This document shows, one piece after another, positions 10,251 to 38,409 of a stretch of 64,000 bases of DNA (position 1 is its first letter; each line of letters opens with the position of its first letter). The stretch is taken from positions 5,890,001 through 5,954,000 of the forward strand of contig NC_089429.1 in the NCBI RefSeq assembly GCF_026210795.1, written 5' to 3'. The notes beneath the pieces were generated by a model, which worked only from the letters and a program-made list of their open reading frames with translations, was not told the DNA's origin and did not search any database. Position numbers and translations under genes: made by a program. The DNA is from Rhizophagus irregularis. Lineage: Eukaryota.

Positions 10251-10354
10251 TACTTTACAGAAACCTTGAAAATTTGAGCGATGTTGAATTGATATGGATA
10301 CGATATAAATTTCATGTCATAATGGTATCAATTTCCGTGATGATATTGTTATAA

Positions 10355-10955
10355 TGTTGATTCGATATCGTTACTTCATCACCATAATTTATCGCGAAAA
10401 TATCGTGGCGATATCTATTTAAAAGAATATCAAATCGGCACAGTCTTGATATCATTACGATGTCAGTAATTTCAAAAAAAAAAGATGTAGTATTTTCGAT
10501 ATTGATTTGATATCGTCACTTCATCACCATAATTTATCACGAAAATATCGGGACAACATTTATTTAAAAGAATATCTGATCGGTATAGTCTTGATATCGT
10601 TACGATATTGTTAATTTCAGGGGAGAAAAAAGATGTATTTACGATATTGATATGATATCGTCACATTATCACCATAATTTATCGCGAAAATATCGTGACG
10701 ATATCTATTCAAAAGAATATCAAATCGGCACAGTCTTGATATCATTACGATATCAGTAATTTCAAAAAAAAAAGATGTAGTATTTGCGATATTGATTTGA
10801 TATCGTCACTTCATCCCCAATTTATCACCAAGATATCATGACAATATCTATTCAAAAATATCTAATCGGCACAGTCTTGATATCATTACGATGTCGGTAA
10901 TTTCAAATAAAAAAAAAAGTATTTACGATATTGATTTGATATTGTCACTTCATTG
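10355..10955. repeat. Left subterminal tandem array, ~145 bp x 4
   Basis: GATATCGTYACWT.ATCACCATAATTTATC-like motif recurs at 10364, 10509, 10654, 10799 and ~10938. Confidence 0.9.
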
Positions 10956-11689
10956 CCGCAACTCATTTGTGGTATCGCAACTCATCCGCAATACCGTAAA
11001 TATTAAACTTTATTTTTTTATAAATTAATAAAAAACTTTTAAATGTATAACGTGCTGTCATATTAATAAAATAAAATTCTGATATTTTATGCGATTTTGA
11101 GAAGCTATTACTGATAGAGTTGCGTTTTACCTTCTAATTTTAACATTGCATCCTTAAAACATACGAATATCGTCAAAAAATCCATGATTTCTCAATATTG
11201 ATTTTATTTGTGATTATCTAGAATTCAATTAAGTAATATTTTTAAGTAATATACATTAGTTATCTCAAAAAGTAACTTCTTCTTAATAGACTTAGAGAAT
11301 ACAATGTTGCAAAGCATCTTTTAACGCCAGATTGAGCTTGTGCATTCATACACCGTCATCCACCTTGTCTCCACGTACGATTTTAGACCTCCTCCTTGTA
11401 TATTTTTTAATTGAATAGCGCTTTAAGTAATGCCGCGCCTATAGCCGAATTTTTGAAAAATCTTGTGAGATTACATTTGCGCATTTAATCATGTCAGAAC
11501 TGATTAAATTAACGCAGCGCGCAATGCACCGTATATCGAGAATTGATGGATGATTTTGAGAGATAATTCGGCGGTGTGGTCCCATAGAGCTGATAAAATG
11601 ATCATGTGAATCTTAGAATAGATAACAAATAGAAGAAACAAAATTAAAATCAGAATATTAATAAAGAAATAATAATGAAATTTACCAAT

Positions 11690-11930
11690 CGTACAATTAG
11701 TTTCCTTAGCTAATTCATTATAGATTCGTAAATTTACACGAGCCAATTCAGCTTGTAATAACGTTCCACTTAAAATTTGTCGAGTTGGTAGTAGGTTGTA
11801 CGCTGGTTGTAAAGTTTTAATCATATCAATAAACCAAGGTTTTCAATAACACTAAATGGGATGCTACTCAATACTCATATCAAAAGCTTTAGTAACCGAA
11901 CGGTCAATAGCATCAAAATATCTCTTTTCC
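11690..11930 (-). pseudogene. Fragment of a hAT-like (DUF659-type) transposase; mirrored at ~42185-42425
   Basis: Translates as DAIDRSVTKAF..IPFSVIE~PWFIDMIKTLQPAYNLLPTRQILSGTLLQAE, with frameshifts. Confidence 0.6.
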
Positions 11931-12554
11931 AATTTGTTGTTTTTTTTGTTAAAATTTTGAATTGATGTATGTTCGTAATTTTGTCTTTGCTTTTATTTGG
12001 TGATTACCTCCAGTTTAATTAATCACGATATTGCAAATTAACTGTGATTAATTATGGTATTGCAGAATAATTGTAACGTTGCAGAATAAATGCGGTTGCG
12101 AAATTGCGAAAATTTAGACATCATAATTCGTAATGTTCGCAATATCATAACCGTCATCCTTAATTATAACAAAAAAAAAATTAATTTGCAAAAAATTAGA
12201 CTTTTGTTTATTTTATTACTAAAAGCATCATGTGGTATATTACAAAATTTCCTTGAATATTGAACTTCACGTGATATAAACCTACAATTAATCAAAAAAA
12301 ATCTTGATATCGCTAATATCGAAGCGGTATATCATGAAGACATCCCCATGGTTTTTTTTTTTGCTTTCCCTCCTACGTTCAAAAAAGATTTTTCAGAAAA
12401 ATTATAGATATTAAAAAATTGTTACGATGTGAAAACTGATAATTCCACGTGTATAAATATATATAATAATAAAAACATATAATACACAATATACCTTATT
12501 TCGCAATCGTGATTTTCTTTCATCATTACTACTCTCTTCATTATCAATGGAACG

Positions 12555-13850
12555 TCAGCGCCTATGTAATAGCGAGATAAGTCCAATGATCTTGCAACAT
12601 TTATTTTTTCAGCTACGAGCTGTCTTATCGTCTTTTTTTTAATTAAACATATAATCCAACAACATTTCGAAGAGCTTTTTTCATTTCTTCAGGTAATTCA
12701 TTTGAAACACACGTTAACCACTGACGAAATATAGCCAAAACTTCAAGGGGAAGATTGCGAAAATTAGCGCCAATACTACTACTATTTTGATACGCGCTAC
12801 CTATATTCAGCCACAATTCACTCCTCTTAAATTCCTAGCAGAATGGTCAAGATGCTGTACGAAGAAATAATGCTCTTAATTCAACGTATATGATGTTTGA
12901 TCCCCATTTGGGAGGGAACTATAACGTTGCTTTCTAATAATTCGCTCATCTATTTCTGACTTTATTCACTAGATCTTTGCTCTTGGGAAGGACTTCTGGG
13001 TAGTGACGGTCTTTAACAAAGTAACTCCAATTATTAATTAATAGTAGTTGTTCAAATTCGTCTCTATAATAAAAATTAAAATAGGTTCAAAATATATGAA
13101 TTATAAATATTACAGATTTATTATAATGATACGTAAATATATTTACCTTGGGAGTACGTGTTTGTGCATTTTCCAAACGCGGAGAACAATATGGAGAACT
13201 AGCCGGAGAAGATTCCATCGGAGTTGTTGATAATATAGGACTTTGGCTTTTCTTATATTGCCTTCCGGCAACCATATTGACGTATTCAGGAAAACAAGCC
13301 CAAACCGACTACTTAATTGCAAGATGATCTGACGCTTTACTCGTTATGTTCTCAATTCTTTCTTTTTTAACATTTCGTCTACAATTATTAGATAGATATC
13401 AAGGTAAGTGAATTATTCATATCATAAAAAGAAAGAATACTGAATATCAACTATAAGTCACCTATTTCTTTCTTGACCAATTTGAGGCGATGATAGATGA
13501 TAGAGCGATGATTGAGGTAGCGGCGACGATTGATACTCTTATAGCTATTGAGGTGTTGCGACCATTAAGGTTGAGATTGTTGAAGTTGTTGCGACCATTG
13601 AAGGTTGTTGAGGTTGTTGAGGTTGTTGAGGCCATTGAGATTGAGGTGGTTGCGGCCATTGAAATTGTTGAGGTTGAGATTGTTGAAATTGTTGAGGTTG
13701 TCGCGGCCACTGAAATAGAGTTTGGGGTTGAGATTGTTGCGGTTGTTGAGACTGAGGTTGTTGATATTGCGGTTGCGATGGCTGCCAATGTTTAATAAGC
13801 GAGCCTTTTTTACGAATTCCTTGTTCTTTATCAAAATCTTGAGAAGACAT
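12555..13850 (-). pseudogene. Q/P-rich spliced 'MSSQD..SLIKHW / ELRALFLRT' family gene, 3' exons decayed
   Basis: Starts MSSQDFDKEQGIRKKGSLIKHWQPSQP. A downstream exon reads FPPKWGSNIIYVELRALFLRT then hits stops. Paralogue of 19874-21672. Confidence 0.6.
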
Positions 13851-14039
13851 TTTAATGATAGTTAAAAAATGCAAGTCAAAAAAAAAACAAATATCTAAAT
13901 ATAAAAAAAAAAAGAAATAATTAATTGAATAAAAAAAAAAAATTTTTTTTATCCCTTTTTTTTTGCGTTGATCTTACCACATCATGATCGAAAAAAATTA
14001 ATTATTAGTTTTTAAATTATAAATTAAATTACAATTTTA

Positions 14040-15070
14040 CTAATTTAATATATAAACTTGCCTTTTGGGTAATTCCAGATTTAGAATAACTTCCTTGTCC
14101 GGAAAAACTGCTTCTCTTAATAGGCAATTGGATCCCTCAGGATCTTTTGGCAAATCGTACTCAAATTTGACAAATATGAGTTTCGTATTATTAATATTTA
14201 CATCAACAGAGAGATTTTTCACATTAAAAATAAAAATATCTACAATTAAACAGCTTTACCAAAAAAAAAGTAAATAAAATATTAATAAAAACAATTAATA
14301 TTAATATAAATAAACTAATATTAATACCTATTAATTTCGACTTCAAAAATATTGTAAGCTGGTAATTGTGATATTAATTTCGACTTCAAAAATATTGTAA
14401 GCTGGTAATTGTGATTGTGATGGTTGTGGTGATTGTGGTGGTGGGAGTTGTACCGGTGATGATTGTGGTGATTGTGGTGGTGGGAGTTGTAACGGTGATG
14501 ATTGTGGTGATGGTTGTGATAGGGGCGGCTGTACCGGGGATTGTAGTGATTGGTTTTGTGTATTCTAATTTTTTATAAAAAATTTTAATAAGTAATAATT
14601 CCTTCATTAATTTATATTTCATTAATGTAATAATAGTGCTTACAGATCGTCCATCATCATCGTCGTCATCATCATCATCATCATCATCATAATCATCATC
14701 ATCTCCTCCTTTTGGACGTGCTTCTGCGAACATGATTGTTTTACTTAGAGGTCCGATAAATTTTTTGTTTCTCACATAATTGTAAAATCTAGTTTTATCA
14801 TCATCATTTTCGAAGTGCACAAATCCATGCCTAAATATAACAAATGTTCATTTAATTAAATTATTAATTAAAAATTGTATATATTAATTATTTTATTTCA
14901 TTACCCCCAATCAGGATCCTTTCTGATATGTACAAAATTGTAAGAAAATCTATTCTTTAACCATCCCTTAACGTCTTTCGATTTTATCCCTTTTAACTCT
15001 TTCGTGTTCTTACCACCGAAGAAAACTGATAATTTATGATCACGACAACATTCATGTCTTTTCTTACCTA
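14040..15070 (-). CDS. Spliced RRM-like protein with poly-Asp and Q/P/S tracts and a possible HSP20-like C-terminal domain
   Basis: LSVFFGG (RNP2-like) ...DPDWG|HGFVHFENDDD (RNP1-like) across a GT-AG intron. Last exon reads KFEYDLPKD..AVFPDKEVILNLELPK. Start codon not located; a 42 bp internal duplication may disrupt it. Confidence 0.55.
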
Positions 15071-15234
15071 TATTATTATTAAATAAAATTAAAAATAATA
15101 AATTAATACTTTATATTAAAAAAAAGAAAAATGATTCATTCTTGATATATACTTTTTCATATAATATATTTGATTTCAATAAAGGAATATTAAATATCAT
15201 ATTTTAACAAAGGAATGGGAATGTTAAAGATGAA

Positions 15235-15410
15235 AGGAAACATATTTTAGCCTTTCGGGACGAAAGGAATCTTATTTTAGCCTTTCGTGACAAAAGGAAT
15301 CTTATTTTAGCCTTTTCGTGACAAAAGGAATATCGATTATTTTAACCAAGGATTTAGCCTTTCATGACGAAAGGAATATTTTAATTCAGCCTTTGTGACA
15401 AAGGAATAGC
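15235..15410. repeat. ~30 bp tandem repeat (TATTTTAGCCTTTCGTGACAAAAGGAATCT) x ~5 upstream of the RRM-like gene; mirrored at ~38710-38885
   Basis: Directly visible degenerate units. Confidence 0.8.
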
Positions 15411-15706
15411 AAGCAAATTTACTTACCCATTTTTCTTTGTTTACTAAATCTTACGAAACCCACATTCTTATTGTAATTCGAATGCAAAATTCGATAGATT
15501 TTATTGGTCAGTTAATGTTAATCATCATGTGAAATCAAATATTTTTTTTTTAGTCATACTCAAGTTTCACAAACCCAATTATATTGCACTATACGTCATA
15601 ATTACACATCTTAATTACAAAAAAACTTTTCGTGTCACTTATCAGTCCAATCAAAAATAAATAAACCGGATTTTGAACAGGCGTAACACGAGATTATATT
15701 TAAACG

Positions 15707-18150
15707 TAGGGATGTTAACGGTTCGGTCCATCTGGTTTTCGGTCCAAAAACTGGTGGTTTGAGTACAAAACCGAACCGTTATAGGTTTAGAACCGGAGTT
15801 TGAACCGAAGTTTGGACTGAAGTTTAGACCGAAGTTTAGACCGGATATTTATAGTATTTTATACAAAATTGTGTAATGCAGATCATGAATTTAAATATAT
15901 CGTATATCGTCAAAAAATTTTTTATTATAAGAAAAAAAATTACCAACAAAATTTCACATAATGTAAAAAAAAAGGAAAAAAAAAAGACATATTGCAAGTA
16001 TTGATTCAATTTTCCATTCTTTCTTTTTCTGATATCCAATTTTTCATGCATATAATTGCCCTTGCCGTTTCAGGATCTAACCTATTTCTAGTTTTTGAAA
16101 TAGTTAATCCCGAAATTGAAAATGCCCTTTCTGATGAAACCGACGTTGCTTGGATTGTTAAATAATCCTTAGCTATTTGAGATAGTACTGGGTAATCCTT
16201 TTCATAAGTTTTCCACCAAATTAAAGAACCTGTATTACTATCTACTGGAGAATTTAAGTATCGATCTAATTCATCATGCGATACTTCTTGACGAATATTA
16301 TTTGGATTAAGTAAATTAAGAAAATAATCACGAGATGATCATGCTGGTGCTGATGGTATGGTTTGATTATTTAAGGGTAAATATGACAAATATAATTCTT
16401 GTAATTTACTAATAATTTCAGTTATATCATTATGACTAAATAATGTGGTTTTGTAGCGTGGATCTAATATTGAAGAAGTAATGGAAGATTGATTCAAATA
16501 TTTGTCCCAATAGGCTTTCAATTTATTACAAATTGCTGATGCTATTGCCTTTTGTGTATGGTGATTTCCTCTTTGATAATGATCCAATTTTTTAAACATT
16601 CCATTAAAAACCAATCTTATATCACCTTGTGTAGGATTTTTTGATGATGATAATAAATTGGTTGCTTCATACATAGGTTCTAATACCTTTGCTAATTCCT
16701 GTAAAAAAAAATAATAATTAATAAATATATAATTATAAAATAAAATAAATAATAATTTATAAAATAAAAAATACCTTAATATATCGCCATTCAGATATTG
16801 TTGGAAATAAATCTCCAAGTTCTTCAACATTTGTTGTTGCAAGTAATTCTGAAACACCCTGCATTAAGATTTGTCTATTAATCATAAAATATGTGGAATT
16901 CCAGCGAATGTCTATATCTAAAATTGGTTTAAGAAATTTAACTTTTTTAAGGGTACAAATTTCTGATAATTTATCCAAAAATAATGGTGAATTCTTGATT
17001 TTAACAACAAATTGACGAAGTTTTTTGATTTCATTTCCAACATGACTCATTCCTGCTTTTACTGCTAAATTTATAATATGTGCAGCACATCTGTAATGAG
17101 TAAAAGCCATATTATTAAACTCCTGATCTAATTCAGTTGCTAGTTGATTACCACATGCTATCATGTTGCTTCCATTGTCTGTAGTTAATGCAAGAATATT
17201 ATTACTGATACTAAACTCTTCAAGAATTTGTAAAAGCTTGCTAGTAATTAACCCAGCTGTATGAGAACCATTTACAGGAATTAAATCAAGTAAGAGATTT
17301 TTTAATTCCCAATTGTTGTTAATATAATGCATTGTTACTCCAAGATAACAATCTTTTGAGATTTCTGAAGTCCAAATATCAGTAGTAAGAGAGATTTTTG
17401 AGTTAATTTGTGAGACTTCATTAATTAACACATTTTTTCTCATTTTATAATTTTCTATGAATTTTTCCTTTAAGGTTTGTCTGCAAGGTAAAATATAGTG
17501 GGGATTCAATTTATTAATTAATAATTTGAATTCAGGATTTTCAACAATGGTAAAAGGTTGCAAATCAGTTGCAACAAAATCAACCAAAGAATCTGTGATA
17601 GGTTTAGATTTTGATGGAGAGTAAGGTTTAAAACGTAAAGTAGTTTGGCGGGTTTCAGGTTTTTTATAATGTGATGGATGTTTTTTAGTTAAATGACGTC
17701 GAAGTGTAGATGTTGGATTACCAGGTGAATAAAGTTTTGCACACAAAATACACTTATAGTTTGTAATTAACCAACTTTCCTCATCTTGAATTTTTTGAAA
17801 AAACTCCCAAACATCTGCTGACAATTTCTTATTTATAATTCTTTCATCATCAGATGCTAAGGAATCATCTGATAAATTATTATCGTCATTTTCAAAAACT
17901 CCCGACATAGTTGTAATAATGCAAGGTGATATAAAAAAATGTAAGAATGTAAAATCCGTTATTCTTTTATTGTAAAAAGTTACGCGTGCAGATACACGTA
18001 ACCGTTAATTGAACCGATCTAAAACCGGTTCACTAAACCGGTTTCTATCGGTTCAGTCTCGGTTTGGTTTGACGTTTGAACTGAACTGAAACCGGTCCTA
18101 TGATCAAACTGCGGTTCGAACCATCCAATCATAAACTGTTAACATCCCTA
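15707..18150 (-). mobile_element. Full-length hAT transposon, 2444 bp
   Basis: TIR TAGGGATGTTAAC(G/A)GTT. Perfect 8-bp TSD TTTAAACG at 15699-15706 and 18151-18158. AACCG-rich subterminal repeats. Confidence 0.96.
16006..17908 (-). pseudogene. hAT transposase (BED zinc finger, DDE, C-terminal dimerisation domain) with one premature stop
   Basis: Motifs VWEFF..CILC..LRRHL..H, TTDIWT, TDNGSN, CAAHIINL, RWNST, LDPRYK, WWK..YPVLS, SVSSERAFS. Intron at 16699-16774. In-frame TGA at 16339-16341. Confidence 0.92.
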
Positions 18151-19873
18151 TTTAAACGGTACGGTAACACTATTGGCTTTAGCCTTTAAGCAATGTGACG
18201 AAAATTATACCCTACCTCCCGCTGTCAACACCTTCTTCACCAAGAATATTATATTCTTCGAGAGATGTGTTAATATCTATGACGAACAACAACTGGCTAA
18301 TTCCTTACAACCATCCAGTATAAAGAGGCCTGTAAAATTTGTAAGTATTTTGGCCATTCTGTAAAAAGTTGCCCCAATTTAAAATCGCAGTTTTGATGGG
18401 GTAATTATTGTATACGCTGCTGGAAAGCTGGGCACAACAGTAGTGAATGTAAAAATGAACTGGAGGTCGTGCCGTTCAACGAAGAGTTTCGTTCTCCAGA
18501 AGAAATTGTAAATTTTTTGATTTATAAATAGTTTATTTTTTTTAAAAAAAAATTTTGAAATTTTTTTTTTTCTTACAAAATTTACCATGAGTTGCTGGTA
18601 GCAGTGGCAAATTTCGAAAGTTTATCTGGGCCGTGGTGGCAGGGTGAACTTTTTTTTTTATACTTTTATTGTATGAAATATTTTTCAATTTTTACAACCT
18701 AATAAAGAGTTAACGGACATTTTTTGAATATCATCTTGAATGCCAAATTGATATGGTGATAATGTTAAATTCATATTGCAGAAAATATAAAAAAAAATTG
18801 TTCAATATGGAAGTCAGTAATTTGATGGATCAGTGATGTCAGAATCAACATCGGAAGTACATATTGAAAGATCACGTCGTATTTTGATAAATTTATTGAT
18901 GTCGCGACGTTATAACCAGAAGTACTTGGAAAATCACAGTTAACTGTGTAGAGGCTTCCATTAAACGAGAAAAATTTTTCATGTGCTGCGTCATTGCTCC
19001 TCTTCCAAATTAATGATTTCTGCTTGTCTGGTTGATTGAGATTGTTGTCTCCTCTTCAAAATGTGGACACCTGGGCAATATTGTAAACGAGGTAGTTGTT
19101 CATCCTCATAAGGATATTGCAATCGAAATGGTCTGTAATTACGTCCAAATTCAGGATAATATTGTGATTGAGGTTTATAAATGGATTGTTGTTGCCGTTG
19201 ATATTGCTGATGATGTTGTTGTAGATGTTGTTGGTGAAGTTGATGTTGATGTTGCTGTTGCTGTTTTTAAAAATAACCTTCACGATTAACTCAATTTAAT
19301 ATTTTATTATTGTATTATAAAATCCAATATACTAATAAAAATGATTTGATTTATTTTAAAAAAACACTGCATGATATCTTCGTGATATCGGTTTGTAATT
19401 GTAAAAAAATTATCTAAATGATATCGTCGTGATGTTTCATAATTGTACCAAAAAAAATCTAAATGATATCGCCGTGTTCGATTCAGTTAAAGAATGTGAA
19501 TGAATGTTCGTTAATTTTGGTTGCAAATTTGAAGTTTTATTTTGGCAATAATGTTATACAATAGAAATAAAAATGATAAAAAATATACTATCTACCCGTC
19601 TTCTTTTAGATTGTGAAAGTAAAAATATATATATATATATATATATATAGATACAAAGAAAAAAATTATTGTTGTAGTAACAATGATAATTATAATCATT
19701 TGACCTGGTTTTTAAAATGATGGTTTTTTACATAGAATTTTTTTTTTAAAAAAAAAAGAAAAATTTGTTTTATAAATTTACATACGAACCTCTCATCAAA
19801 CTTCAACACACGACCAGATACTTTACTTTTCTACGCTAAAAATTTAAATTGAAAAAAATCTACATAATATATA

Positions 19874-21672
19874 TTATTTTTTTCGCTTTTTAGTAGATTT
19901 CTTTGATTTCGGCTTTGGTTCATCCTCAGAGCTGGAATTTGAATCATCATCATCATTATTTTCAATTTCATACTTTGATAAATCAATCAAAGAACCAATA
20001 TTATATCCAGATAAATTGTTAAAAATATTATTAACCGTATAAAGGTTTCCGGTGTGAGTAAAAAAACGGTCACGTGCATCACTGTTATAAATTTCTAAAC
20101 AGTGGAATCCAACATGAATTAAATTTTTAAGCGAATTTTCATTTTCTTGAGATATCGGCTTGTCCGAAAATTTCAACCAAAGGTTGAATATTTCTTCAAT
20201 ATGACGACCTTTTAAGTACGGCTTGAAATCAAGACTTTCGTCTTTTTCTTTACGTTTTTGATAAGTTTCGTATCTAAGCTTGATGTTATCCCATAATGTA
20301 TTTCTCCAGTACGACCAGGTTTTACGAAAACTTTTTGCTACATTATGTAATATGTCAGGATGATCGTTCATAAAAGTTGGTAACAATGACGCTAAGAAAT
20401 CTTCTATAATTTGATTATTGTTGCTTTTATCTAAGTTTCTTGTTCTTAGGAATAATGATTTTAATTCGTTAATCACTATTATTCTTAACCACTTTGGGAT
20501 AGAGTTTTGCAACGATATAATATTAGAAATTCTCTTCTGGTTATATGATATATTTGTATCACGATCTGTGAACTTTTCAGGAGAATTTGCATAAGGGCAA
20601 ATCGATGTTGGATATCTTCGATTCTTGAGATAGAATTTTGGCAGCTGTAAGCCTGAGCTTAAGAGTTCTTCTTCCATATCATCCCTAATTTTTAAAGAAA
20701 ACATTGTTATATGAAGATTACAAGATGATAAATATGAAAAAAATATATTTGTTACATTGGATTCATCCGAGGGAGAGTTGAAGATGTAACAGAAGGTATA
20801 GCAATACCAAGAGAAGAAGTACTAGTACTACTTTGAGTTATAAGAGGAATTTCTTCCAAGGTATCCCTAATTTTAAAAAACATTATGTTAATATGAAGAT
20901 TATAAGATTATAAATATGAAAAAATCATATTCGTTACATTGAATCCGTCCGTGTGAGAGTTGGGGTTGTCATAATAGGTGTAGACGATGAGGAAGTGCGG
21001 CTTCGTTCTTCACTAGAACGCTTGCCTCTGTGGATCATCTGCTCGATTTGATCATGTAAATGTTCGAGGAGCGTCATGGCAAAGCGTTCTGCAATAGATT
21101 GTCGGACATAAACAGGATTAACGGCTCTGGACATGATGTCCTCGATTTGTAGAAATAGTGTAGCGAGTAAATTATCTATATGATAGAAATAACGTTACAA
21201 GTTATTGTTCTGTTATTGAAGATTTCTTCAAATACCGAATATTATAATAATACAGACCAATTTCTTCATCAGAAAGTAATTGTGTTGAAGGATGCTGCAA
21301 GTGTTGTGAGGAATACGAGGGGTATGGAAGCTGTTGTTGTGACGAGGGGTATGGAGACTGTTGTTGTGACGAGGGGTATGGAAGCTGTTGTTGTGACGAG
21401 GGGTATGGGTACAAGGGGTATGGAGAATGTTGCCGTGACGAAAAACGTTGAGAGGGATATGGATACTGTTGCTGTGACGAACGTAAGGAAGGTAAAAGTT
21501 GAGATGATTGAGATAAATATTGTTGTGACCATTGAGGTTGAGATTGCGATTGCGAAGGCGATTGCGAAGGCGATTGCGAAGGCGGTTGCGAAGGTTCCCA
21601 ATGCTTAATAAGAGAGCTCCGTCTATGACTTTCTTTTTCTTGTACAGGCTTATTACGATCTTGAGAAGACAT
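19874..21672 (-). CDS. Spliced 'MSSQD..SLIKHW / ELKSLFLRTRN' family protein, unknown function
   Basis: ORFs 21202-21672, 20934-21134, a short exon at ~20757-20866 and 19874-20686, with GT-AG boundaries. Q/P/S-rich N-terminus, helical core, acidic then Lys-rich tail. Confidence 0.7.
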
Positions 21673-22883: not shown

Positions 22884-23480
22884 GGGATGATATTGAAAAA
22901 AGCTTGTTGAAGCTGGATTATCGTTACCATTAAAATATCTGGAAATTTGATCATTTTTCAAAATTTGATTTGACGAATCGTTCAAGTACATCGTTCCTAA
23001 ATAATGGCTTCAATTCGCCGAAAATTATCTTTCTAATCCACTTCGGTAGTGATTTGTACGACTCAAAAAGCAAACGTGCCATTTGAGCTTGAGTAATGCT
23101 GCCTGAATTGTGTGGATCGATGAATTCTTTTTAAGGATACGCTGACGTGTTACAAATTTATAATAATTTGCATAACGTCCTTTGGAAGAAATTAGTAGAA
23201 AGGTACATTAAATATAAAAATAGTAAAGAGAAGATTAAGCCGAATGTAAATCTAAAGAATCGACAAATTAAGGAAAATACTAACGGAGGAGAATGAGAGC
23301 GCACTTAAAATCTCATCATCTTTGGGTTTTATTGTATTGAGAATTTATAAGATGCGCACGACAAATTTTTCTCATTTTACGGAAGCCTTTTCACAGTTAC
23401 TTGTGATTTTCCAAGCTCTTCGAGATATAATATTGCGGCTTCTATGGATTTATCAAATTTTTATGTAGTCTTTAAATAAT
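22884..23480 (+). pseudogene. Decayed paralogue of the last exon of 19874-21672
   Basis: TTAG|GGATGATATTGAA reads DDIEK~LVEAGLSLPLKYL, versus DDMEEELLSSGLQLPKFYL in the paralogue; later IVPK*WLQ versus SIPKWLR. Confidence 0.4.
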
Positions 23481-23739: not shown

Positions 23740-24300
23740 ATGGGAAAACCATCATTACATTCTAGGAAAACGGCCTGGCGTAGACAAAAAAAACGACAAT
23801 ATAAAAAATTTAAACAAAAAGAAATTGAAATATCTGATCTCCAGATACAGCTCCAGGATTTCCAAAAAGCTGTTGAGACAGCTGGTGAACAAGTGATTTC
23901 CAAGCTAGACAAAACTGAGCGTGAAAACGCAAATCTATTGAAGTGGATCGATATTTTTTCAAATCAAATCTCAAGTCAGGAAGAAGAGATATATAAGCTT
24001 GAATTAAAGAGTTATTTAGCACAATCATCATCGTCTCTGTCATCTCCACCACAGCCACCATCATCATCATCATCATCACAATTGTCACCGACATCTTTTA
24101 AAAGCATGGATGAGTACTTTAAACATAATCAAGTTAGTAATTTTTTAGGTATTGTGCAATTTTTAATGATTTTTATTTTTATAATTAATGAATTGTTCTC
24201 ATTTTTTAGTAAAAGAAATCTAGTAGTTCATTATTTTTTTTTACTATTCTCATTTTTTTTAAATAAAAGAAATTTTTGTAATATTGAAATAAATACATAA
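23740..24300 (+). CDS. Small basic/coiled-coil protein; true 3' end probably spliced near 24132
   Basis: Basic NLS-like N-terminus, heptad-like EIEISDLQIQLQDFQ.., and a Ser/Pro tail. The last ~55 codons look intronic. Confidence 0.55.
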   Translation: MGKPSLHSRKTAWRRQKKRQYKKFKQKEIEISDLQIQLQDFQKAVETAGEQVISKLDKTERENANLLKWIDIFSNQISSQEEEIYKLELKSYLAQSSSSLSSPPQPPSSSSSSQLSPTSFKSMDEYFKHNQVSNFLGIVQFLMIFIFIINELFSFFSKRNLVVHYFFLLFSFFLNKRNFCNIEINT

Positions 24301-24989: not shown

Positions 24990-26582
24990 TTATGAAAAAA
25001 GATGGAGTTTTAAAGAGCTAGCAATGTTTCTTCCGCTACAGGAAGGAATTTCTAGATCTTCTGTAATAACATCTAACTCCTTAACCTTTTCTTTGATATT
25101 TGCGCTTTCAGTTTCAACCCAGACTATTTTGAAGCATTTTCTGGAGAATTCTATTAATTTATCTAGTGAAGTTTCCGATAATTTTGTAAAATCGATGGCT
25201 GAAACGTATCGGCTTAAGATTCTCTTTAAAACCACCTCACGTGATATGAAGTTGTTTACTTCCTCGTCGGTAGGATCTGAACTTTCCGTATATTCACTTT
25301 AATAGAAAAAAATTTTAAATCATTAAATCATTGTAGTAAAAACAACATAACGATATGAACGTATCGATCACCTTTCTACAATTTGTCAAAATTCTTTTAC
25401 TAATGTTGAAAGTACATTTTTCAATTGATATCGATAGTCGGAAAATGATTTACGATATCGTTCGTTAATTGACTTCGCCACGCTTTGATAAGCATCATGC
25501 CCAAAAATTTTTTGTGTTATTTTATCAAACGCATGATCGGGCAGATTTCTAGTTCGCAAAAAAAGACATTTCATTTCTTCGTCAATAACACGATAATTAT
25601 CCTAAATAGTAATAATATCAATAATACATAATACATCAGTAATTCTGCTGTGTAATAACGATTGTTCTTAATTGGTAAGAATGTAACAACCAAAATAAGA
25701 AATGGACTTTACGTTGTCAGATGATGACGAAGTCGAGGTGGTTAGTGGCAAATTTGTTGATGGCTGCTTCGTCGAGGCATCAAGCATTTTGTTTGCCAAA
25801 TGTAGCACACTTGGATGTAAGACCAACCAATTGCAAATTTGCAATTGATTGGTCATTGCGCCAAACTGAACCGGAATTTCTTCTTCACTCTCTAGAAGTA
25901 ATATTAAATGAGAATAAAATTATATTCATTAATTATGTTCAGATTTTATGTTTTACCGCTTTCATCATTTTCATTTTCTTCTTGTTCTTTATCTTGCTCT
26001 CTCCTATCCCTCTCTCTCCTATCCCTCTCTCTCTCTCTCTTCTCTCTTTCTTTTTCTTTTTCTTCTTTCTTTCTTTTTCTTCTTTCTTTTCTTTTTCTTC
26101 TCTCTTTATCTCTCCTCTCCATCTCTTTCTTCTCATTTTCTCTTCTTTCTTTTTCAATATTTCTTTCTTCTTGCTCTGAAAGCATATCTTCATTATAACG
26201 AAGTAAATTTATTTTTAAATAAATTCGCAGAAATATCATTTCAATTGAATAATAAAACAATTATTATAAGGTATTTACCCAAAATAATTCTTTCAATATC
26301 ATCATCTTGTCTATTATTACCTTCTCCAATATCTACATCTTGTCCATGTAAATTATCTTGTTCATGTTCACTTCCTTCCTCTCTCCTTTCATCTCTTTCC
26401 TTATTATAATCACGTGAAGAGTTGGCAACATATGTACGAATAGTTTTTGTAGTCTTTGCAGCTTTTGTTGCCTTGTCTTTTAGGTATCATTATAATAGTA
26501 TTAGGCGCAATTACTATATAAAATTTCAAATCAAAAATATAATTTTATTACCTTTTCCTGTTACTCCTCTGCGTTTAGTCAT
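24990..26582 (-). pseudogene. Multi-exon accessory gene of the 'EMKCLFLRTRN' family with a long E/R/K charged tract, divergent from the transposase
   Basis: ATG at 26582 (MTKRRGVTGK|). Exons match ORFs 25946-26260, 25668-25856, 25386-25574 and 24990-25235. In-frame TGA at 25386 (KEF*QIVE). Confidence 0.65.
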
Positions 26583-26717
26583 GATAAACAAACAAGATGG
26601 TACTTATTGGTATTGTGCTAGTAGCAACGTAAAGAAATAGGTGATTCCTGACGAAACGAATACAGCATTATCTTTATTTATTTATAGAGATTTCTCCTAA
26701 TATTAAGAAAAAATTAC

Positions 26718-29700
26718 ATCGTGACCGCAGCACATAAAAGGAAATTGGGTTAGCATTCTCGAAAAAAACGTTCATGGTTACATTAAATCTTGGATAGTTG
26801 ATCGGAAGAATTTGTTAATGGTTACATCGATTCTTTATGAAGAAAATTTTGGGAAAATTTGATGTCTTAACGGTTACATGTAAAGAAATTATATATGAGT
26901 ATCGTAACCGTAGGACATAAACGGAAATTTGGCCAACAAAATTTTCAAATTATTGGAATAATTGATCGGGAAAATCCTTAATGGGTATATTAGCTCTTTG
27001 TCCGCAGAACATTAATGGTAATTTCGAGCAATATTAACGGTTACAAGTAAAGAAGCTATATATGAATATCGTGATCGCAGGACATAAACGGATTTTCGGG
27101 ATAATTGATCAGGAGAAAAAATTTGTTAATGGTTACATAATCAGGGTTGAAGAATTATACTGTACGTACTATATTATGCTGTCCTAATACTTAAATAGAG
27201 TACATTTTTTATATGTTTAATATATTATATATTTATTTTAATAATTAGGATTGATAATAAATTATTAACTATTCTTTTAATCTTAATAGAAAAAATATTA
27301 TATTAAATATTTAACAGTGCAATATTAATGGGCAATGGAAAAATTGCGGTTACATGTAAGGTGATCGCAGGACATAAAAGGAAATTTAGATTCAGATTTG
27401 GGGATAATAAAAATTATTAATGGTTACACATTGATTTTTTATCTGCAGCGCATTGATAGAATTCAGGGGTAATCTGAAAAATTTGACAGAAATATCGTGA
27501 TCGCAGGACATAAACAGAAATTTAGATCAAAAAATTGATCGGAAAAATATTTGTCAACAGTTCTGTTGATTCTTTATCTGCAAAAGATCTTTATCTGCAG
27601 CACATTGGTGGAATCTAGGGTAATGATCTGAAAAATTTGACATGAATATCGTAGTCGCAATAAATAAATAGAACTTTAGGTCAATAATTGATCGGAAAAA
27701 ATTATTAATGGTTACATTGATTTTTTATCTGCAGCGCATTGATAGAATTCAGGGTAATCTGAAAAATTTGACAGAAATATCGTGATCGCAGGACATAAAC
27801 GGATTTTCGGGATAATTGATCAGGAGAAAAAATTTGTTAATGGTTACATAATCAGGGTTGAAGAATTATACTGTACGTACTATATTATGCTGTCCTAATA
27901 CTTAAATAGAGTACATTTTTTATATGTTTAATATATTATATATTTATTTTAATAATTAGGATTGATAATAAATTATTAACTATTCTTTTAATCTTAATAG
28001 AAAAAATATTATATTAAATATTTAACAGTGCAATATTAGTGCAATGTATACAGTAAATTGATGAATTTTGGGCAATGGAAAAATTGCGGTTACATGTAAG
28101 GTGATTGCAGGACATGAACAGAAATTTAGATCAAAAAACTGATCGGAAAAAAATTTTGTCAACAGTTCTGTTGATTCTTTATCTGCAAAAGATCTTTATC
28201 TGCAGCACATTGGTGGAATCTAGGTAATGATCTGAAAAATTTGGCATGAATATCGTGGTCGCAATAAATAAATAGAAATTTAGATCAATAATTGATCGGA
28301 AAAAATTGTTAATGATTACATTGATTTTTATCTGCAGCGCATTGACAGAATTTGTTACATTAATTCTCTATCTCGGAATTATTTTAAAAAAAAACTTTTA
28401 CAAGTTGTTGACCCAAATTTCCTTTTATGTAGTGCAGTCAGCGATATCACAGTCGTAATATTATAAAAAAAATTACTTTGTACTTTTTTCCCAAAGAATT
28501 CAATTGATATTTTTTTAAAGTTTGACTGTCCATATCTTATCAGTTACATATAAAAATACCACATCTCAGATCAGAGTTTTTAGATTTCTAATAAAAAAAA
28601 GTTAGAAAGAAAATGTCCTCTCCCAAACCTAGTAGAGAAGAAACAGGTATAAAAAAAAAATACCTCATATTAATTCATTAAATAACGTATGATAATATTC
28701 ATATAATTTCTTTCATATATAGATAATACGATATTGATCTCGCTAGACGATCTAATAAAAGAACAAACCCGATTGAACGATCTTCGCCAAACCAACATTA
28801 AAAAGAAACGGCAACGTCCGTCTCGTAACAACCGAACGAAGACCATGGGAGACTGGGCTCAGATGGTGAAAAAAGTATGATCATTTGATTCTTTAATATT
28901 TTGTGATAATTTGAAATATTTAACACTTTAAAATTATTTGTTAGAATTGATATTGCCATTATATGAAGTTATATCTCATTACAATACCGCACAATATTAC
29001 TATATTCACCTTCTTTTCAATTTATTTCAATAAAAAAATAAATCTTATGTAATTTTATAATTGTATATATCCGTAAAGCTCACCACTAGTGATTTTATCA
29101 TAATAATTGATCGTAATAATTTAAAATCATAAAAATCAAAATTTCATATAAACCAGAACACGAATTGCTAACAATTTTTTTCTGATCATTTGTCTTGTCT
29201 AAATGTGCTGCGATCACGATATTCTTAAAATGTAATGTCAATTTTTCAGAAAAGCTTTGTTAACCCAATTTCCGTTATGTCCAGCAGCCTATATAAATTT
29301 CTTTACATGTAATCGTCAAAACATTAATCAAGAGCTTTGTTAACCCAAATTTCTATAGTTACGATGTTGTTCATTATATAATTCATTAACAATTAATGTA
29401 ACTAACTATTAACGAATTTTTTTTCTGATCAATTATCCCAAAATTTGATGATCTAAATTTCCGCTTATATCTTGCGGTCACAATATTCATATAAATTCCT
29501 TTATATATAACCGTTAAAGAAGTCAACTCATCAGATCATTGCCTCAAAATTTCGTCAATGCATTGTAAGTAAAGAACCAATGTAGCCATTAAGAAAATTT
29601 CCCGATCAATTCAAATTTCCGTTTATGTCCCGCGGTCACAATATTCATACAAAATTTCTTTGCACGTCAATTTTAGATCATTTTACCAAAATGTACTGTG

Positions 29701-30123
29701 GACAAAGAACTAACGAATGTAACCATTGACATTTTTTTCTGATCGATTTTCCCAAAATTTAAGAAATTAGTAATCTAAATTTCCGTTTATGTTCTGCAGT
29801 CACGCACGATATTCATACAAAATTTCTTTGCATGTAACTGTTGTTAACACGTCAATTTTAGATCATTTTCCCCAAGATTTCCATTAATGTACTGTGATCC
29901 AAGAACTAATGTAACCATTGACATTTTTTTTTCTCGAAATTTCGTGAAATTCGTAATATAAATTTCCGTTTATGTCCTGCAGTCACGATTTCATACAAAA
30001 TTTCTTTACATGTAACCAGATCATTGCCCAAAATTTCCGTTAATGCACCACGGACAAGGAACTAATGTAACCGTTAAGAAATTTGTTAACCCAAAATTTC
30101 CGTTTATGTGCTGCGGTCACGAT
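26718..30123. repeat. Bipartite inverted array of ATATCGTGAYCGCAGGACATAAACGGAAATTT-type units
   Basis: Forward units at ~26718-28330 and reverse units at ~28410-30123. The outermost 21 bp (ATCGTGACCGCAGCACATAAA) are perfect inverted copies. Includes a 711 bp offset duplication (27070 versus 27781). Confidence 0.88.
28613..28880 (+). CDS. Tiny spliced basic protein at the centre of the inverted array
   Basis: MSSPKPSREET|DNTILISLDDLIKEQTRLNDLRQTNIKKKRQRPSRNNRTKTMGDWAQMVKK with an in-frame GT-AG intron at 28647-28722. Confidence 0.4.
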
Positions 30124-30252
30124 ACTATGATATCCAATTGAAAATATTATAAAAGCAGTTAATGAATTAAATACACAAACGCGCATGGACATTTTTTAAA
30201 TTTATGATTTTATTTCATTTTATTATTCCTTATTATAATTATTGTCATAGCC

Positions 30253-34469: not shown

Positions 34470-34712
34470 TTTTTTTTTGGCCGCTGATGAAATGCACCAT
34501 TTTTAAGACCTCTATATGGTAGGCCGTATCATGGAGGCAGGGTATGCACATAGCGAAAGCGCCGTACTCCTATGTAATACTTGGGATCTTGTGGTATCAG
34601 AAGGTAGTGGTGATGTATCATTGGTCATAGGCAGTTGGGTACTAATGGCTGACGACCTAAGGGACACTCTAATGAGGTAGGCCCCGCCGGATGAGCTCAA
34701 CCCACTTATTGC
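34470..34712 (-). other. GC-rich ~240 bp island ending in poly(A) on the minus strand; possible SINE-like insert
   Basis: Sharp GC rise, T9 tract at 34470-34478, no credible ORF, no clear TSD. Confidence 0.3.
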
Positions 34713-35134
34713 ATTTTTTGATTCTTAAGGTTGAAAATCTTGGTCAAGTGTTCTGAGACCAATTTTTATTTTAAAAAAAAATTTCGTTTGATTTCTATAA
34801 ATGCAGTACTTTAATTTATGCATCTTTTTTAGGATTAACAACCAGCATTTGCAATGACTTTAATAAATCTTAAGAACTATCATTTAATTAGGTTGGTTTG
34901 TATCTTCAACTCCTGTATTTTCTCATGGACAACTATATGTTGCATGTTCAAGAATAACATCAAGAAAAAATTTAAATAATTAAATTTTTACTTTATTTCA
35001 AGTTTAGGTTTTAACCATTAACTGCTAATGTAGTTAACAGGTGAATCCTAGTAGTATTTAATATTTGTGACGAAATCCGATAATGTTGTGCGTAACTACT
35101 CCATTATGTTATAACGATATCGTCACGTTGGTTT

Positions 35135-35570
35135 ATATTAACCATCCGGGGAGAGAGAGATGTGTCTAATTTACCAGGTACGATCGTATCTTTAATTTCG
35201 CAGAAACTTGCACCATAATCCGTGTACTTATTAATTTAACAATTGTCACAAAGTTTCGATACAATATTAGTGTCATAACAGTTAACCATCTGGAGAGAGA
35301 GAGATGTCTAATTTACCAGGTACTTATCTTTAATTTCGCAGAAACTTGCGTTGTATGTAATACAGACTCTTGTCAATTCAGTATTTGGTATAATATTAGT
35401 GTCTTATGTTAACCGTCGGAGAGAGAAGTAATTTACCAGGTGCGTCGTAATCAGGAAACTTACATCAATTCAACATTTATAATATTATTGTCATACCGAT
35501 ATTGTCGCATTGTTTTATGTTACTAGAGAGGGATGCGCCTACATAATTTACCAAGTACGATTAAACTTCG
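35135..35570. repeat. Degenerate ~130-145 bp tandem repeat x 4
   Basis: TTAACC..GGAGAGAGA..TAATTTACCAGGT units near 35138, 35282, 35409 and 35520. Confidence 0.75.
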
Positions 35571-35851
35571 CAATACTTATCAATTCAACAATTGTGAATC
35601 AATAATGACGGAACGTGACTACTTCAAGCTGTAATAACAATGATATCGATACGTTGTTTTTATTTTTCATTTTGACCATCATAATTGCATATTAATAATA
35701 TATACGGCATTATCAATTAATAAAAATTATTGAATGTACTAGTACCTACGGTTCACAATTTTTTCATGACCCAAAATTCTTGTCAAATATCATCTTGATA
35801 CTGTGTAAATGTCGTCCTGATATCTTAATAATATTTTTAAATGAAATAATA

Positions 35852-36420
35852 TTTTTAAATGATATCGTAACAGTACGGTTTGATAATTATATCGATACAT
35901 TTTCAACATCATCGCAACATCTTCACGATAACATCACGATTTTTAAATGATATCGTAACAGTACGGTTTGATAATTATATCGATACATTTTCAACATCAT
36001 CGCAACATCTTCACGATAACATCACGATTTTTAAATGATATCGTAACAATACGGTTTGATAATTATATCGATACATTTTCAACATCATCGCAACATCTTC
36101 ACGATAACATCACGATTTTTAAATGATATCGTAACAATACGGTTTGATAATCATAACGATACATTTTCAACATCATCGTAACATTTTCACGACGACATCA
36201 TGATTTTTTTGAAGATATCGCGACGATATAGTTATGATAGTCTTAACGATACCTTTCCAACATCTTCGCGATATTAAATTACGAAATCAATATGATATCG
36301 TTCTGATATCAAAATGTTACCGATTTTAATATCGCGAAGATGTTGGAAAGGTATCGTTAAGACTATCATAACTATATCGTCACGATATCTTCAAAAAAAT
36401 CATGATGTCGTCGTGAAGAT
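35852..36420. repeat. Right subterminal array: 88 bp x ~4.5 followed by a ~90 bp-arm hairpin
   Basis: GATATCG recurs at 35861, 35949, 36037, 36125 and 36214. 36186-36278 is inverted at ~36326-36417. Confidence 0.92.
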
Positions 36421-36472
36421 GTTGAAAATGTATCATTAAAATATTGTGGCAAATTTGAAGATTTCAGCAAAG

Positions 36473-38409
36473 TACTTTACGTTTTAAACCTTACTCTCCA
36501 TCAAAATCTAAACCTATCACAGATTCTTTGGTTGATTTTGTTGCAACTGATTTGCAACCTTTTACCATTGTTGAAAATCCTGAATTCAAATTATTAATTA
36601 ATAAATTGAATCCCCACTATATTTTACCTTGCAGACAAACCTTAAAGGAAAAATTCATAGAAAATTATAAAATGAGAAAAAATGTGTTAATTAATGAAGT
36701 CTCACAAATTAACTCAAAAATCTCTCTTACTACTGATATTTGGACTTCAGAAATCTCAAAAGATTGTTATCTTGGAGTAACAATGCATTATATTAACAAC
36801 AATTGGGAATTAAAAAATCTCTTACTTGATTTAATTCCTGTAAATGGTTCTCATACAGCTGGGTTAATTACTAGCAAGCTTTTACAAATTCTTGAAGAGT
36901 TTAGTATCAGTAATAATATTCTTGCATTAACTACAGACAATGGAAGCAACATGATAGCATGTGGTAATCAACTAGCAACTGAATTAGATCAGGAGTTTAA
37001 TAATATGGCTTTTACTCATTACAGATGTGCTGCACATATTATAAATTTAGCAGTAAAAGCAGGAATGAGTCATGTTGGAAATGAAATCAAAAAACTTCGT
37101 CAATTTGTTGTTAAAATCAAGAATTCACCATTATTTTTGGATAAATTATCAGAAATTTGTACCCTTAAAAAAGTTAAATTTCTTAAACCAATTTTAGATA
37201 TAGACATTCGCTGGAATTCCACATATTTTATGATTAATAGACAAATCTTAATGCAGGGTGTTTCAGAATTACTTGCAACAACAAATGTTGAAGAACTTGG
37301 AGATTTATTTCCAACAATATCTGAATGGCGATATATTAAGGTATTTTTTATTTTATAAATTATTATTTATTTTATTTTATAATTATATATTTATTAATTA
37401 TTATTTTTTTTTTACAGGAATTAGCAAAGGTATTAGAACCTATGTATGAAGCAACCAATTTATTATCATCATCAAAAAATCCTACACAAGGTGATATAAG
37501 ATTGGTTTTTAATGGAATGTTTAAAAAATTGGATCATTATCAAAGAGGAAATCACCATACACAAAAGGCAATAGCATCAGCAATTTGTAATAAATTGAAA
37601 GCCTATTGGGACAAATATTTGAATCAATCTTCCATTACTTCTTCAATATTAGATCCACGCTACAAAACCACATTATTTAGTCATAATGATATAACTGAAA
37701 TTATTAGTAAATTACAAGAATTATATTTGTCATATTTACCCTTAAATAATCAAACCATACCATCAGCACCAGCATGATCATCTCGTGATTATTTTCTTAA
37801 TTTACTTAATCCAAATAATATTCGTCAAGAAGTATCGCATGATGAATTAGATCGATACTTAAATTCTCCAGTAGATAGTAATACAGGTTCTTTAATTTGG
37901 TGGAAAACTTATGAAAAGGATTACCCAGTACTATCTCAAATAGCTAAGGATTATTTAACAATCCAAGCAACGTCGGTTTCATCAGAAAGGGCATTTTCAA
38001 TTTCGGGATTAACTATTTCAAAAACTAGAAATAGGTTAGATCCTGAAACGGCAAGGGCAATTATATGCATGAAAAATTGGATATCAGAAAAAGAAAGAAT
38101 GGAAAATTGAATCAATACTTGCAATATGTCTTTTTTTTTTCCTTTTTTTTTACATTATGTGAAATTTTGTTGGTAATTTTTTTTCTTATAATAAAAAATT
38201 TTTTGACGATATACGATATATTTAAATTCATGATCTGCATTACACAATTTTGTATAAAATACTATAAATATCCGGTCTAAACTTCGGTCTAAACTTCAGT
38301 CCAAACTTCGGTTCAAACTCTGGTTCTAAACCTATAACGGTTCGGTTTTGTACTCAAACCACCAGTTTTTGGACCGAAAACCAGATGGACCGAACCGTTA
38401 ACATCCCTA
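36473..38409 (+). mobile_element. 5'-truncated copy of the hAT element (lacks the BED finger and one TIR)
   Basis: Begins mid-gene. Intron at 37341-37417, same premature TGA at 37775, true stop at 38108-38110, TIR ends at 38409. Confidence 0.93.

What the first reader, a model, noticed from the sequence alone, without database searches (positions are those of the whole stretch)
10251..36474. Candidate giant (~26 kb) cargo-carrying CMC-like transposon with non-canonical termini
Seen: two imperfect ~25 bp inverted termini, each backed by a different GATATC/CpG-rich tandem array (145 bp and 88 bp units) and each placed exactly where an unrelated gene is cut. Between them lie one DDE transposase, several spliced non-transposase genes or pseudogenes and a nested hAT. 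Established: CACTA/EnSpm elements have short TIRs plus subterminal repeats and can capture genes. Inference: this is one mobile unit, a DDE-driven analogue of the large fungal cargo elements, with its own accessory gene set.
Basis: partly seen in the sequence, partly recalled or inferred. Interest (0 to 1): 0.85.

Follow-up and report, generated by a model that had tools for sequence, protein, structure and literature searches.

The report
26-kb RAG-like transposon of mycorrhizal fungus
This is a 26-kilobase stretch of mycorrhizal-fungus DNA with matching inverted ends and an intact enzyme gene predicted to resemble the immune system's RAG1, likely one jumping element that carries mostly copies of its own helper gene and smaller parasites, and here it is fused to an inverted partial second copy of itself.

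Summary
The element is real; the Starship comparison is overstated. Matching ~26-bp inverted ends (21 of 26 columns) bound 26.2 kb of Rhizophagus DNA. The transposase is intact (1084 aa; the frameshift is contradicted by 4 of 4 read sets) and is a CMCT-clade DDE enzyme, predicted RAG1-like with two BAH domains. Relatives at about 50% identity share the same ends; one is a complete 7.9-kb element. In public R. irregularis annotations the inner genes B1, C and transposase recur at neighbouring locus tags on several contigs, and the left 7.4 kb occurs at two insertion sites in this window. The cargo is mostly paralogues and pseudogenes of the element's own second gene plus nested transposons; no host-function gene was identified. 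A 24.4-kb cargo-carrying Plavaka is already described. New here: CTTT..AAAG ends with a likely TA target, matching no described CMCT lineage I could test.

The parts
9716..10250 (+). Host site of copy A: 5' part of a canonical CACTA/EnSpm (Transposase_21) gene, cut at the left end
   Evidence: P0121 96% over 178 aa and continues; P0123 has PF02992 and PF13960
10251..10276 (+). Left terminus of copy A: TA (likely target) then inverted repeat starting CTTTAC at 10253
10357..10953 (.). Left subterminal tandem array, 145 bp x4.2, GATATC/CpG-rich
11290..12000 (-). Degenerate gene remnant, hAT-like by eye (recalled motifs); no clear Pfam hit
   Evidence: the ORF 11504-11824 is on 13 Logan contigs
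12500..13850 (-). B2: pseudogene of the ORF2/B family with Q-rich N-terminus
   Evidence: tblastn P0158, E 8.7e-8 at 13150-13359
14690..15060 (-). Small spliced gene, RRM-like by eye (recalled pattern); not confirmed
   Evidence: Pfam gave no hit for either exon
15707..18150 (-). Nested hAT transposon: 13-bp perfect TIR, 8-bp target duplication, BED finger, one in-frame stop
17635..17647 (.). TA site inside the hAT that resembles both element ends; the same site in the second copy is where the right end is joined
18873..18995 (-). B3: C-terminal fragment of the ORF2/B family
   Evidence: E 1.7e-12
19874..21672 (-). B1: intact 4-exon gene, 524 aa, distant paralogue of ORF2; multicopy annotated gene in R. 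irregularis
22954..23476 (.). B4: broken ORF2/B-family copy, pieces on opposite strands
   Evidence: E 6.3e-9, 0.004, 1.2e-10
23740..24135 (+). Gene C: about 130 aa, basic N-terminus, no known family; travels with B1 and the transposase
24990..26582 (-). ORF2: the family's conserved second gene, 6 exons, 383 codons, one in-frame stop in this copy
26700..30150 (.). Degenerate repeat field in both orientations around a small spliced gene (28614 to about 29000); shared with L001, L004, L007
30253..33821 (+). Transposase, 5 exons, 1084 aa, D466/D550/E821 with C(2)C, D(2)H and H(3)H; predicted RAG1-like core and two BAH domains
34860..35051 (+). Probable Helitron 3' remnant (helicase motif and CTAG end, recalled features)
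35851..36208 (.). Right subterminal tandem array, 88 bp x4.1, followed by a 99-bp-arm inverted repeat (36180-36423)
36450..36474 (-). Right terminus of copy A: inverted repeat ending AAAG at 36472, then TA
36473..43858 (-). Copy B: inverted, truncated second copy holding the left 7.4 kb (left end, array, B2, RRM-like gene, 3' two thirds of the hAT)
   Evidence: 99.74%, 11 substitutions, 8 one-base gaps
43859..44494 (+). Host site of copy B: 3' part of an ORF cut just before a CxxC..H..C motif, LINE-like by recall; no Pfam support

Best explanation
The stretch 10253-36472 has matching inverted ends and an intact DDE transposase gene and is likely one cut-and-paste transposon of the CMCT (EnSpm/Plavaka/Transib) clade that grew from a two-gene core by duplicating its own second gene and collecting nested transposons, and whose right end was likely joined by the transposase to a TA inside a second, inverted copy. 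Shown: ends, arrays, gene content, intact frame, the 7.4-kb inverted copy, shared ends and second gene in relatives, recurrence of B1, C and transposase at neighbouring locus tags. Inferred mechanism: the transposase pairs the CTTT..AAAG ends, cuts them RAG/Transib-style and inserts into TA, duplicating it; ORF2-family proteins would bind the subterminal repeats as TnpA does in En/Spm (by analogy only); the predicted BAH domains would read chromatin marks and could bias insertion towards other transposons. Two copies existed, and one single-ended transposition (adjacent deletion) would have removed the DNA between them, leaving L-R joined to an inverted left part.
For: Ends: 3 exact motif hits against 0.03 expected, none further between them. 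The same ends occur in 3 of 32 related loci: L013 (both ends, 7.9 kb apart, transposase 50% identical), L017 and L027 (right ends). TA stands directly outside CTTT at 6 of 7 ends, and the one empty site known base by base (intact hAT, 17641-17642) is TA. Enzyme: 4 of 4 runs carry the base missing at 30595; the spliced frame is then 1084 aa without a stop, the length of the annotated P0316. D466 is kept in 30 of 31 rows, D550 in 31 of 31, E821 in 16 of the 16 rows that reach it. Best structural match RAG1 (Foldseek E 5.8e-8; Z 17.0, rmsd 4.0, 396 aligned), BAH at Z 10.8 and 9.7; profile match to a Transposase_21 family at probability 92.5. One unit: in one annotation (OCT59 tags) 3 of 7 near-identical transposase tags seen have a B1 tag within 5, and 4 of 4 gene C tags seen lie within 2 of a B1 tag, against 0.02 and 0.01 pairs expected; the order B1-C-transposase matches the window at 012169/012170/012172 and 007753/007755/007757. 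One gene C protein is identical on 14 contigs. Joint: run X1 holds one contig from 36388 to 36502 across the right end into the hAT, and also the intact hAT. The joined site begins TACTTTAC, as only 2 of 5072 directional TA sites in the element begin TACTTT[AG]C.
Against: No locus shows both ends around these genes with a target duplication; this copy's flanks do not match each other. The link from the left 7.4 kb to the B1-transposase block rests on this window alone: of 17 other window ORFs looked up, 16 were absent from the collection and 1 had only unnamed members. 4 of 7 transposase tags and 3 of 9 B1 tags had no near-identical partner among the members listed (15 shown per cluster). L013's right end reads AT|CTTT, and its flanks also fit a 2-4 bp duplication (TG, TGT or ATGT), so TA is not proven. 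X1's contig reaches only 28 letters past the end, under the tool's 31-letter rule for a bridge, and X1 may be close to the window's source. ORF2 in this copy has an in-frame stop. The B-domain model was poor (pLDDT 55, best Z 6.2), so DNA binding by ORF2 is unsupported. L030 has a 99.4% identical transposase but only 74-82% identical 3' DNA, and B1 and C had no R. clarus members among those listed although the transposase has many: the 26-kb layout is one subfamily's, not the family's.
Confidence: 0.72

Rival explanations
1. Same element, but the window's layout is an assembly chimera or an ectopic crossover: the left flank comes from one 26-kb copy and the right flank from another that had simply inserted into a third copy's hAT.
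For: The repeat is longer than most long reads; the arms differ by 8 one-base gaps and the window has a one-base error at 30595, as long-read assemblies do; the element is multicopy.
Against: All three joints fall exactly at termini. In X1 the contig through the right end does not break at 36474, as it would if that run held several right-end flanks (inference from de Bruijn contigs); this rival needs at least three right-end flanks.
Confidence: 0.12
2. A true Starship-like vehicle: the DDE element captures and spreads host genes that matter to the fungus.
For: B1 is intact and C recurs nearly unchanged in many annotated copies; an RRM-like gene and a small spliced gene have no clear link to the core.
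Against: B1-B4 are homologous to ORF2, which lies upstream of the transposase in 5 of 11 loci examined; most copies are broken; no inner gene other than the hAT reached a Pfam cut-off; 26 kb is near the 24.4-kb Plavaka and 16-20-kb En/Spm already described.
Confidence: 0.08
3. The two ends belong to different units: a 7.4-kb non-autonomous piece bounded by the left end and the TIR-like site at 17640, and a separate autonomous element ending at 36472 whose own left end has decayed.
For: 10253-17640 is itself bounded by TA|CTTTAC ... GTAAAG|TA and is exactly the duplicated piece; no evidence outside the window ties it to the transposase block.
Against: The site lies mid-gene in a hAT that continues intact to 18150 with both target duplications; no other end-like motif lies between 10251 and 36474; B2 left of the hAT and B1, B3, B4 right of it are one family.
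Confidence: 0.08

Closest known systems
Plavaka (CMCT clade; Kojima 2025, PMC12730594; reported as prevalent in R. irregularis, PMC11075540)
   Same: Fungal CMCT transposase with C(2)C and H(3-4)H motifs; can be large and carry an extra gene (PlavakaB-1_GyCo 24,396 nt with a TET/JBP gene); two distant relatives give sub-threshold PF18759 hits.
   Different: Termini are TGT..ACA (A) or CATCA..TGATG (B) there, CTTT..AAAG (or TACTTT..AAAGTA) here; no PF18759 hit for P0009; no TET/JBP gene found.
ESTA (EnSpm-like with TA TSDs; PMC12730594)
   Same: CMCT clade, RAG1-like transposase, TA target duplication, 12-14 kb families with an extra gene.
   Different: All 5 ESTA consensus starts I saw begin CAC; described from rust fungi; here CTTT, Glomeromycota, two predicted BAH domains.
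CACTA/En-Spm (Transposase_21)
   Same: Short TIRs plus subterminal repeats, a second gene, homologous catalytic core; 16-20 kb families with 4-5 ORFs in Chondrus (PMC6431247).
   Different: No CAC termini, no PF02992 hit, separated from the neighbouring CACTA family by a long branch.
Lanisha (moss; PMC8245031)
   Same: Listed in the CMCT clade.
   Different: Its termini, target and protein could not be read; membership is open.
Starships (PMC9156397, search listing; summary passage in PMC13465315)
   Same: Large fungal element with several inner genes and nested transposons, variable between copies.
   Different: Tyrosine recombinase (DUF3435) and host-function cargo there; DDE enzyme and mostly self-derived paralogues here.
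RAG1/Transib
   Same: Best structural match of the predicted model.
   Different: About 10% identity; no RAG2 partner seen; BAH domains instead.

Membership tests
CMCT clade (Kojima 2025) | DDE triad with C(2)C and H(3-4)H motifs between second D and E | tested here: met
   D466, D550, C569/C572, D642/H645, H797/H801, E821
CMCT clade (Kojima 2025) | RAG1-like transposase structure | tested here: met
   predicted model: Foldseek E 5.8e-8, Z 17.0
CMCT clade (Kojima 2025) | 5'-CA..TG-3' termini in most cases | tested here: not met
   all 7 ends start CTTT inside (T)A; the paper says 'in most cases'
CMCT clade (Kojima 2025) | 2-5 bp target-site duplication | tested here: inconclusive
   TA at 6 of 7 ends and at the one known empty site, but no matched pair of flanks
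CACTA/EnSpm | CAC..GTG termini and Transposase_21 domain | tested here: not met
   relative P0101 reaches only E 0.069
CACTA/EnSpm | Subterminal repeats and a second gene | tested here: met
   L027 also has a 74-bp array, L013 has none
Plavaka | Termini TGT..ACA or CATCA..TGATG | tested here: not met
Plavaka | PF18759 above cut-off | tested here: not met
   none for P0009; 25.1 bits (cut-off 26.3) for P0115, 17.1 for P0300
Plavaka / ESTA / Lanisha / Mirage | Transposase falls in that clade in a tree with references | not testable with these tools
   no reference proteins were held; the tree has only Transposase_21 as outgroup
ESTA | TA target duplication | tested here: inconclusive
   as above
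ESTA | CAC termini (seen in the supplement rows) | tested here: not met
   5 of 5 ESTA starts seen are CAC; here CTTT
Starship | DUF3435 tyrosine-recombinase captain at the 5' end | tested here: not met
   no such hit among the ORFs scanned; the element's enzyme is DDE
Starship | Cargo of host-function genes | tested here: inconclusive
   5 gene bodies are ORF2-family; C, the RRM-like and the small gene are unassigned

The most novel reading that the evidence does not exclude
An undescribed lineage of RAG1-like transposons (Glomeromycota and more distant eukaryotes) with CTTT..AAAG ends and two BAH chromatin readers, whose transposase also acts at cryptic end-like sites and so makes programmed-looking deletions and inverted duplications between copies; its 26-kb form is the source of multicopy, strain-variable 'genes' in arbuscular mycorrhizal fungi and has moved recently between Rhizophagus species.
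Probability: 0.3. Interest if true: 0.72.

Novelty: new variant of a known kind. Interest (0 to 1): 0.5.

Why it matters
Two-thirds of R. irregularis transposable elements are unclassified (abstract of PMC11075540). This element gives one abundant family defined ends, a two-gene core and a 26-kb form, and shows that at least two multicopy 'hypothetical proteins' in public annotations (B1 and C) likely ride inside it. It offers a concrete route to structural variation in this symbiont: single-ended transposition between copies. A RAG1-like transposase with predicted BAH domains makes chromatin-guided targeting testable. It does not, on present evidence, give these fungi a Starship equivalent.

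Tried and rejected
No whole genome was held, so the ends could not be searched genome-wide. The left-end 24-mer found 0 matches in prokaryote genome contigs. A degenerate end pattern gave 60 viral loci, 0 of 60 with blastn similarity to the window: chance. Depth was not used as copy number. Reading 10251-43858 as one element with 7.4-kb TIRs was rejected: its two flanks are different genes. A profile search of PDB sequences gave 1 weak unrelated hit. The B-domain fold search was uninformative. The protein atlas did not complete. One search was a self-comparison with no information. Earlier findings of the scan: none in 3 look-ups. OCT59_010432 next to B1 tag 010437 was dropped from the pair count because it is a 54-57% transposase of another subfamily. 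Literature: 7 searches found no description of this element; the search for BAH domain + transposase + Rhizophagus + DNA transposon returned 0 papers. Repbase, the curated library of PMC11075540, Iyer et al. 2014 and the Lanisha report were not seen and may hold it.
Full report
Setting. The window is AT-rich eukaryotic DNA with spliced genes. The transposase exon at 31324-32310 is 98-100% identical to annotated proteins of Rhizophagus irregularis and R. clarus (185 hits among 2086 candidates, 120 listed). No whole genome was held, so evidence from outside the window comes from protein clusters, 32 metagenome loci and four sets of run contigs.

The observation. The two termini exist and agree at 21 of 26 columns. 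Their shared motif occurs 3 times in the window against 0.03 expected in 30 shuffles; with one mismatch 4 against 0.63, the fourth at 61427, outside the element. The 145-bp and 88-bp arrays are as described and are GATATC- and CpG-rich. The left end cuts a CACTA transposase gene of another family: P0121 is 96% identical over the 178 residues and continues past the cut, and its relatives carry PF02992 and PF13960.

10247-17647 is repeated in inverted form at 36468-43862, 99.74% identical over 7402 columns. The third motif hit, at 43858, is a second left end, inserted in a different ORF (LINE-like by recalled motif; Pfam gave no support). The 'unrelated gene' at the right end is the nested hAT of this second copy. 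The layout is: CACTA 5' half, copy A (left to right end), copy B's left 7.4 kb inverted, LINE-like 3' part. None of the three flanks is the other half of another, so no target duplication pair is seen. Reading the whole 33.6 kb as one element with giant TIRs fails for the same reason.

Ends and target. The intact hAT shows the empty site of the right-end joint: TA at 17641-17642. The CACTA reading frame also fits TA being host sequence (codon for the Ile of NNI). Among 32 related loci, 3 reach an end: L013 has both, 7.9 kb apart; L017 and L027 have right ends. TA stands outside CTTT at 6 of 7 ends. The exception, L013's right end, lacks one base, and its flanks would also fit a 2-4 bp duplication. 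I therefore take CTTT..AAAG with a TA target as likely, not shown.

The enzyme. The window's frameshift is contradicted by 4 of 4 runs, which carry one more base after 30595. The five-exon frame is then 1084 aa without a stop, as in the annotated P0316. D466, D550, E821, C(2)C, D(2)H and H(3)H are conserved across 31 aligned proteins (30, 31 and 16 of 16 covering rows for the triad) and align to a Transposase_21 family at probability 92.5. The AlphaFold model of P0009 (pLDDT 74.5) matches RAG1 best, then Transib (Z 9.9) and P element (Z 9.8), with BAH-like domains at about 296-433 and 912-1076. Pfam has no family above cut-off for it. 1593 representatives at 50% clustering match at E up to 0.001, including full-length proteins at about 30% identity. 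In a 34-row tree these and the Rhizophagus-type proteins stand apart from the 3 CACTA rows (100/100), but the tree has no Plavaka, ESTA, Lanisha or Mirage reference.

The inner genes. ORF2 (26582-24990) has homologues upstream of the transposase in 5 of 11 loci examined (L004, L007, L013, L017, L025); the other six hold little or no upstream DNA. It lies head to head with the transposase in the window, L004, L013 and L025, and on the same strand in L007 and L017. L013 consists of just these two genes, so they are the core. A profile built from the four relatives' ORF2 finds B1 at E 3.5e-6 among 1323 window segments (best reversed control E 0.1). A profile of 32 B1 homologues finds fragments B3 and B4 and, weakly, ORF2 (E 0.006); tblastn finds pseudogene B2. 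B1 is intact (524 aa); ORF2 and the hAT each carry one in-frame stop in this copy. The hAT has 13-bp TIRs and an 8-bp duplication. Gene C, an RRM-like gene (by eye only), a small spliced gene, a hAT-like remnant and a probable Helitron end complete the list. The B domain's fold is unresolved.

Do they move together? Locus tags run along contigs (established practice; the listed contig lengths agree within each pair). Among OCT59 tags seen, 3 of 7 near-identical transposases have B1 within 5 tags, on three different contigs; 4 of 4 C tags lie within 2 of B1; two loci show B1-C-transposase in the window's order. Chance expectation is 0.01-0.02 pairs (assuming 30,000 genes). Other annotations give RhiirA5_429858/429862 on one 16,325-bp contig, GBC40026/GBC40028, GBC29368/GBC29371 and GBC44817/GBC44821, the first of that last pair on a 26,406-bp contig. 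Only 15 members per cluster are listed, so unpaired tags (4 of 7 transposases, 3 of 9 B1) are not absences. Of 17 other window ORFs looked up, 16 were not in the collection and 1 had only unnamed members, so the left third is tied to the rest only by this window, by the matching ends and by B2 belonging to the same family.

The joint. Run X1 has one contig from 36388 to 36502 across the right end into the hAT, and a loose end at 36468 that is the intact hAT. The overlap is 28 letters, under the tool's 31-letter rule, but ends 30 letters after the last base that tells joint from intact hAT, where a 31-mer contig must end (inference). X1 shares three variants with the window and differs at five C>T or G>A sites where the other three runs agree with the window, so it is related but not identical. 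In X10 the contig stops 2 letters past the end without matching the hAT; no record at the end is listed for X8 or X9. The joined site resembles both ends (CAAAcTA on one side, TACTTTAC on the other); only 2 of 5072 directional TA sites in the element begin TACTTT[AG]C. Insertion of a free right end next to a bound end-like site, RAG-style joining of a true and a cryptic end, and microhomology repair after a transposase cut all fit; the data do not separate them. Either order of events (A in the CACTA gene then a right-end deletion, or A in copy B then a left-end deletion) needs two insertions and one deletion.

Comparison with print. Kojima 2025 (PMC12730594; abstract, passages, sections 16 and 34, supplement rows cut at 400 letters) defines the CMCT clade, Plavaka A/B and ESTA and lists a 24,396-nt Plavaka with a TET/JBP gene. 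PMC11075540 (passages) reports Plavaka as prevalent in R. irregularis by profile search, with no termini in the passages seen. PMC6431247 (passages) cites 16-20 kb En/Spm families. PMC8245031 and its preprint (passages) name Lanisha without details; supplements could not be read. PMC5751038, PMC13519894, PMC11952901 and PMC13465315 were seen as passages; PMC9156397 as a search listing only. Seven searches found no description of this element; Repbase was not available.

Verdict. A real, recently mobile, large CMCT transposon with termini that fit no lineage I could test; best called a new variant of a known kind. The cargo is mostly self-derived, and the locus is a two-copy rearrangement. Interest 0.5.

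Noticed in passing
window 31324-32310: The transposase exon is 98-99% identical between R. irregularis and many R. clarus copies, while B1 and C had no R. clarus members among those listed. This may mean recent transfer between species and a different gene load; background divergence was not measured.
   Followed up: no
L030:1-1803 and 1804-2911: Transposase 99.4% identical to the window up to the stop codon, then only 74-82% identical patches: modules appear to be exchanged between subfamilies.
   Followed up: partly
window 28533-28952; L001:286-607; L004:896-1286: The small gene inside the two-way repeat field is inverted in L001 but not in L004 relative to the transposase; ORF2 also changes orientation between loci. 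The field may act as an invertible segment.
   Followed up: partly
window 10250, 36473, 43859; L013:1-116: All three insertion sites in the window are in other transposon genes (one by recall); L013's left flank reads like a kinase gene fragment (recalled motif).
   Followed up: no
window 31189, 31271, 31593, 32996; stops at 25386-25388 and 16339-16341: The window copy has T where all 4 runs have C at four transposase sites, and TGA stops in ORF2 and the hAT: C-to-T decay or base-calling error.
   Followed up: partly
GBC28166, GBC28169, GBC28172: Gene C accessions lie on both sides of a transposase accession, a hint of another rearranged or tandem copy.
   Followed up: no
window 58256-61613: A separate 3.4-kb element with about 250-bp inverted ends (80% identity), no long ORF inside; probably a decayed non-autonomous DNA transposon.
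   Followed up: no
window 52882-57480 (-): Single-exon 1532-aa URGCP/very-large-GTPase-like gene (PF25683 E 3.9e-65), outside the element.
   Followed up: no
window 5664-5958 and 7784-8977: A 133-bp-arm palindrome, and a spliced gene head to head with the cut CACTA transposase, probably that element's own second gene.
   Followed up: no
window 3802-4584 and 48574-50316: Degenerate direct repeats (74-84%) on both sides of the whole structure, with a 69-bp array at 48869-49142; perhaps an older element family.
   Followed up: no
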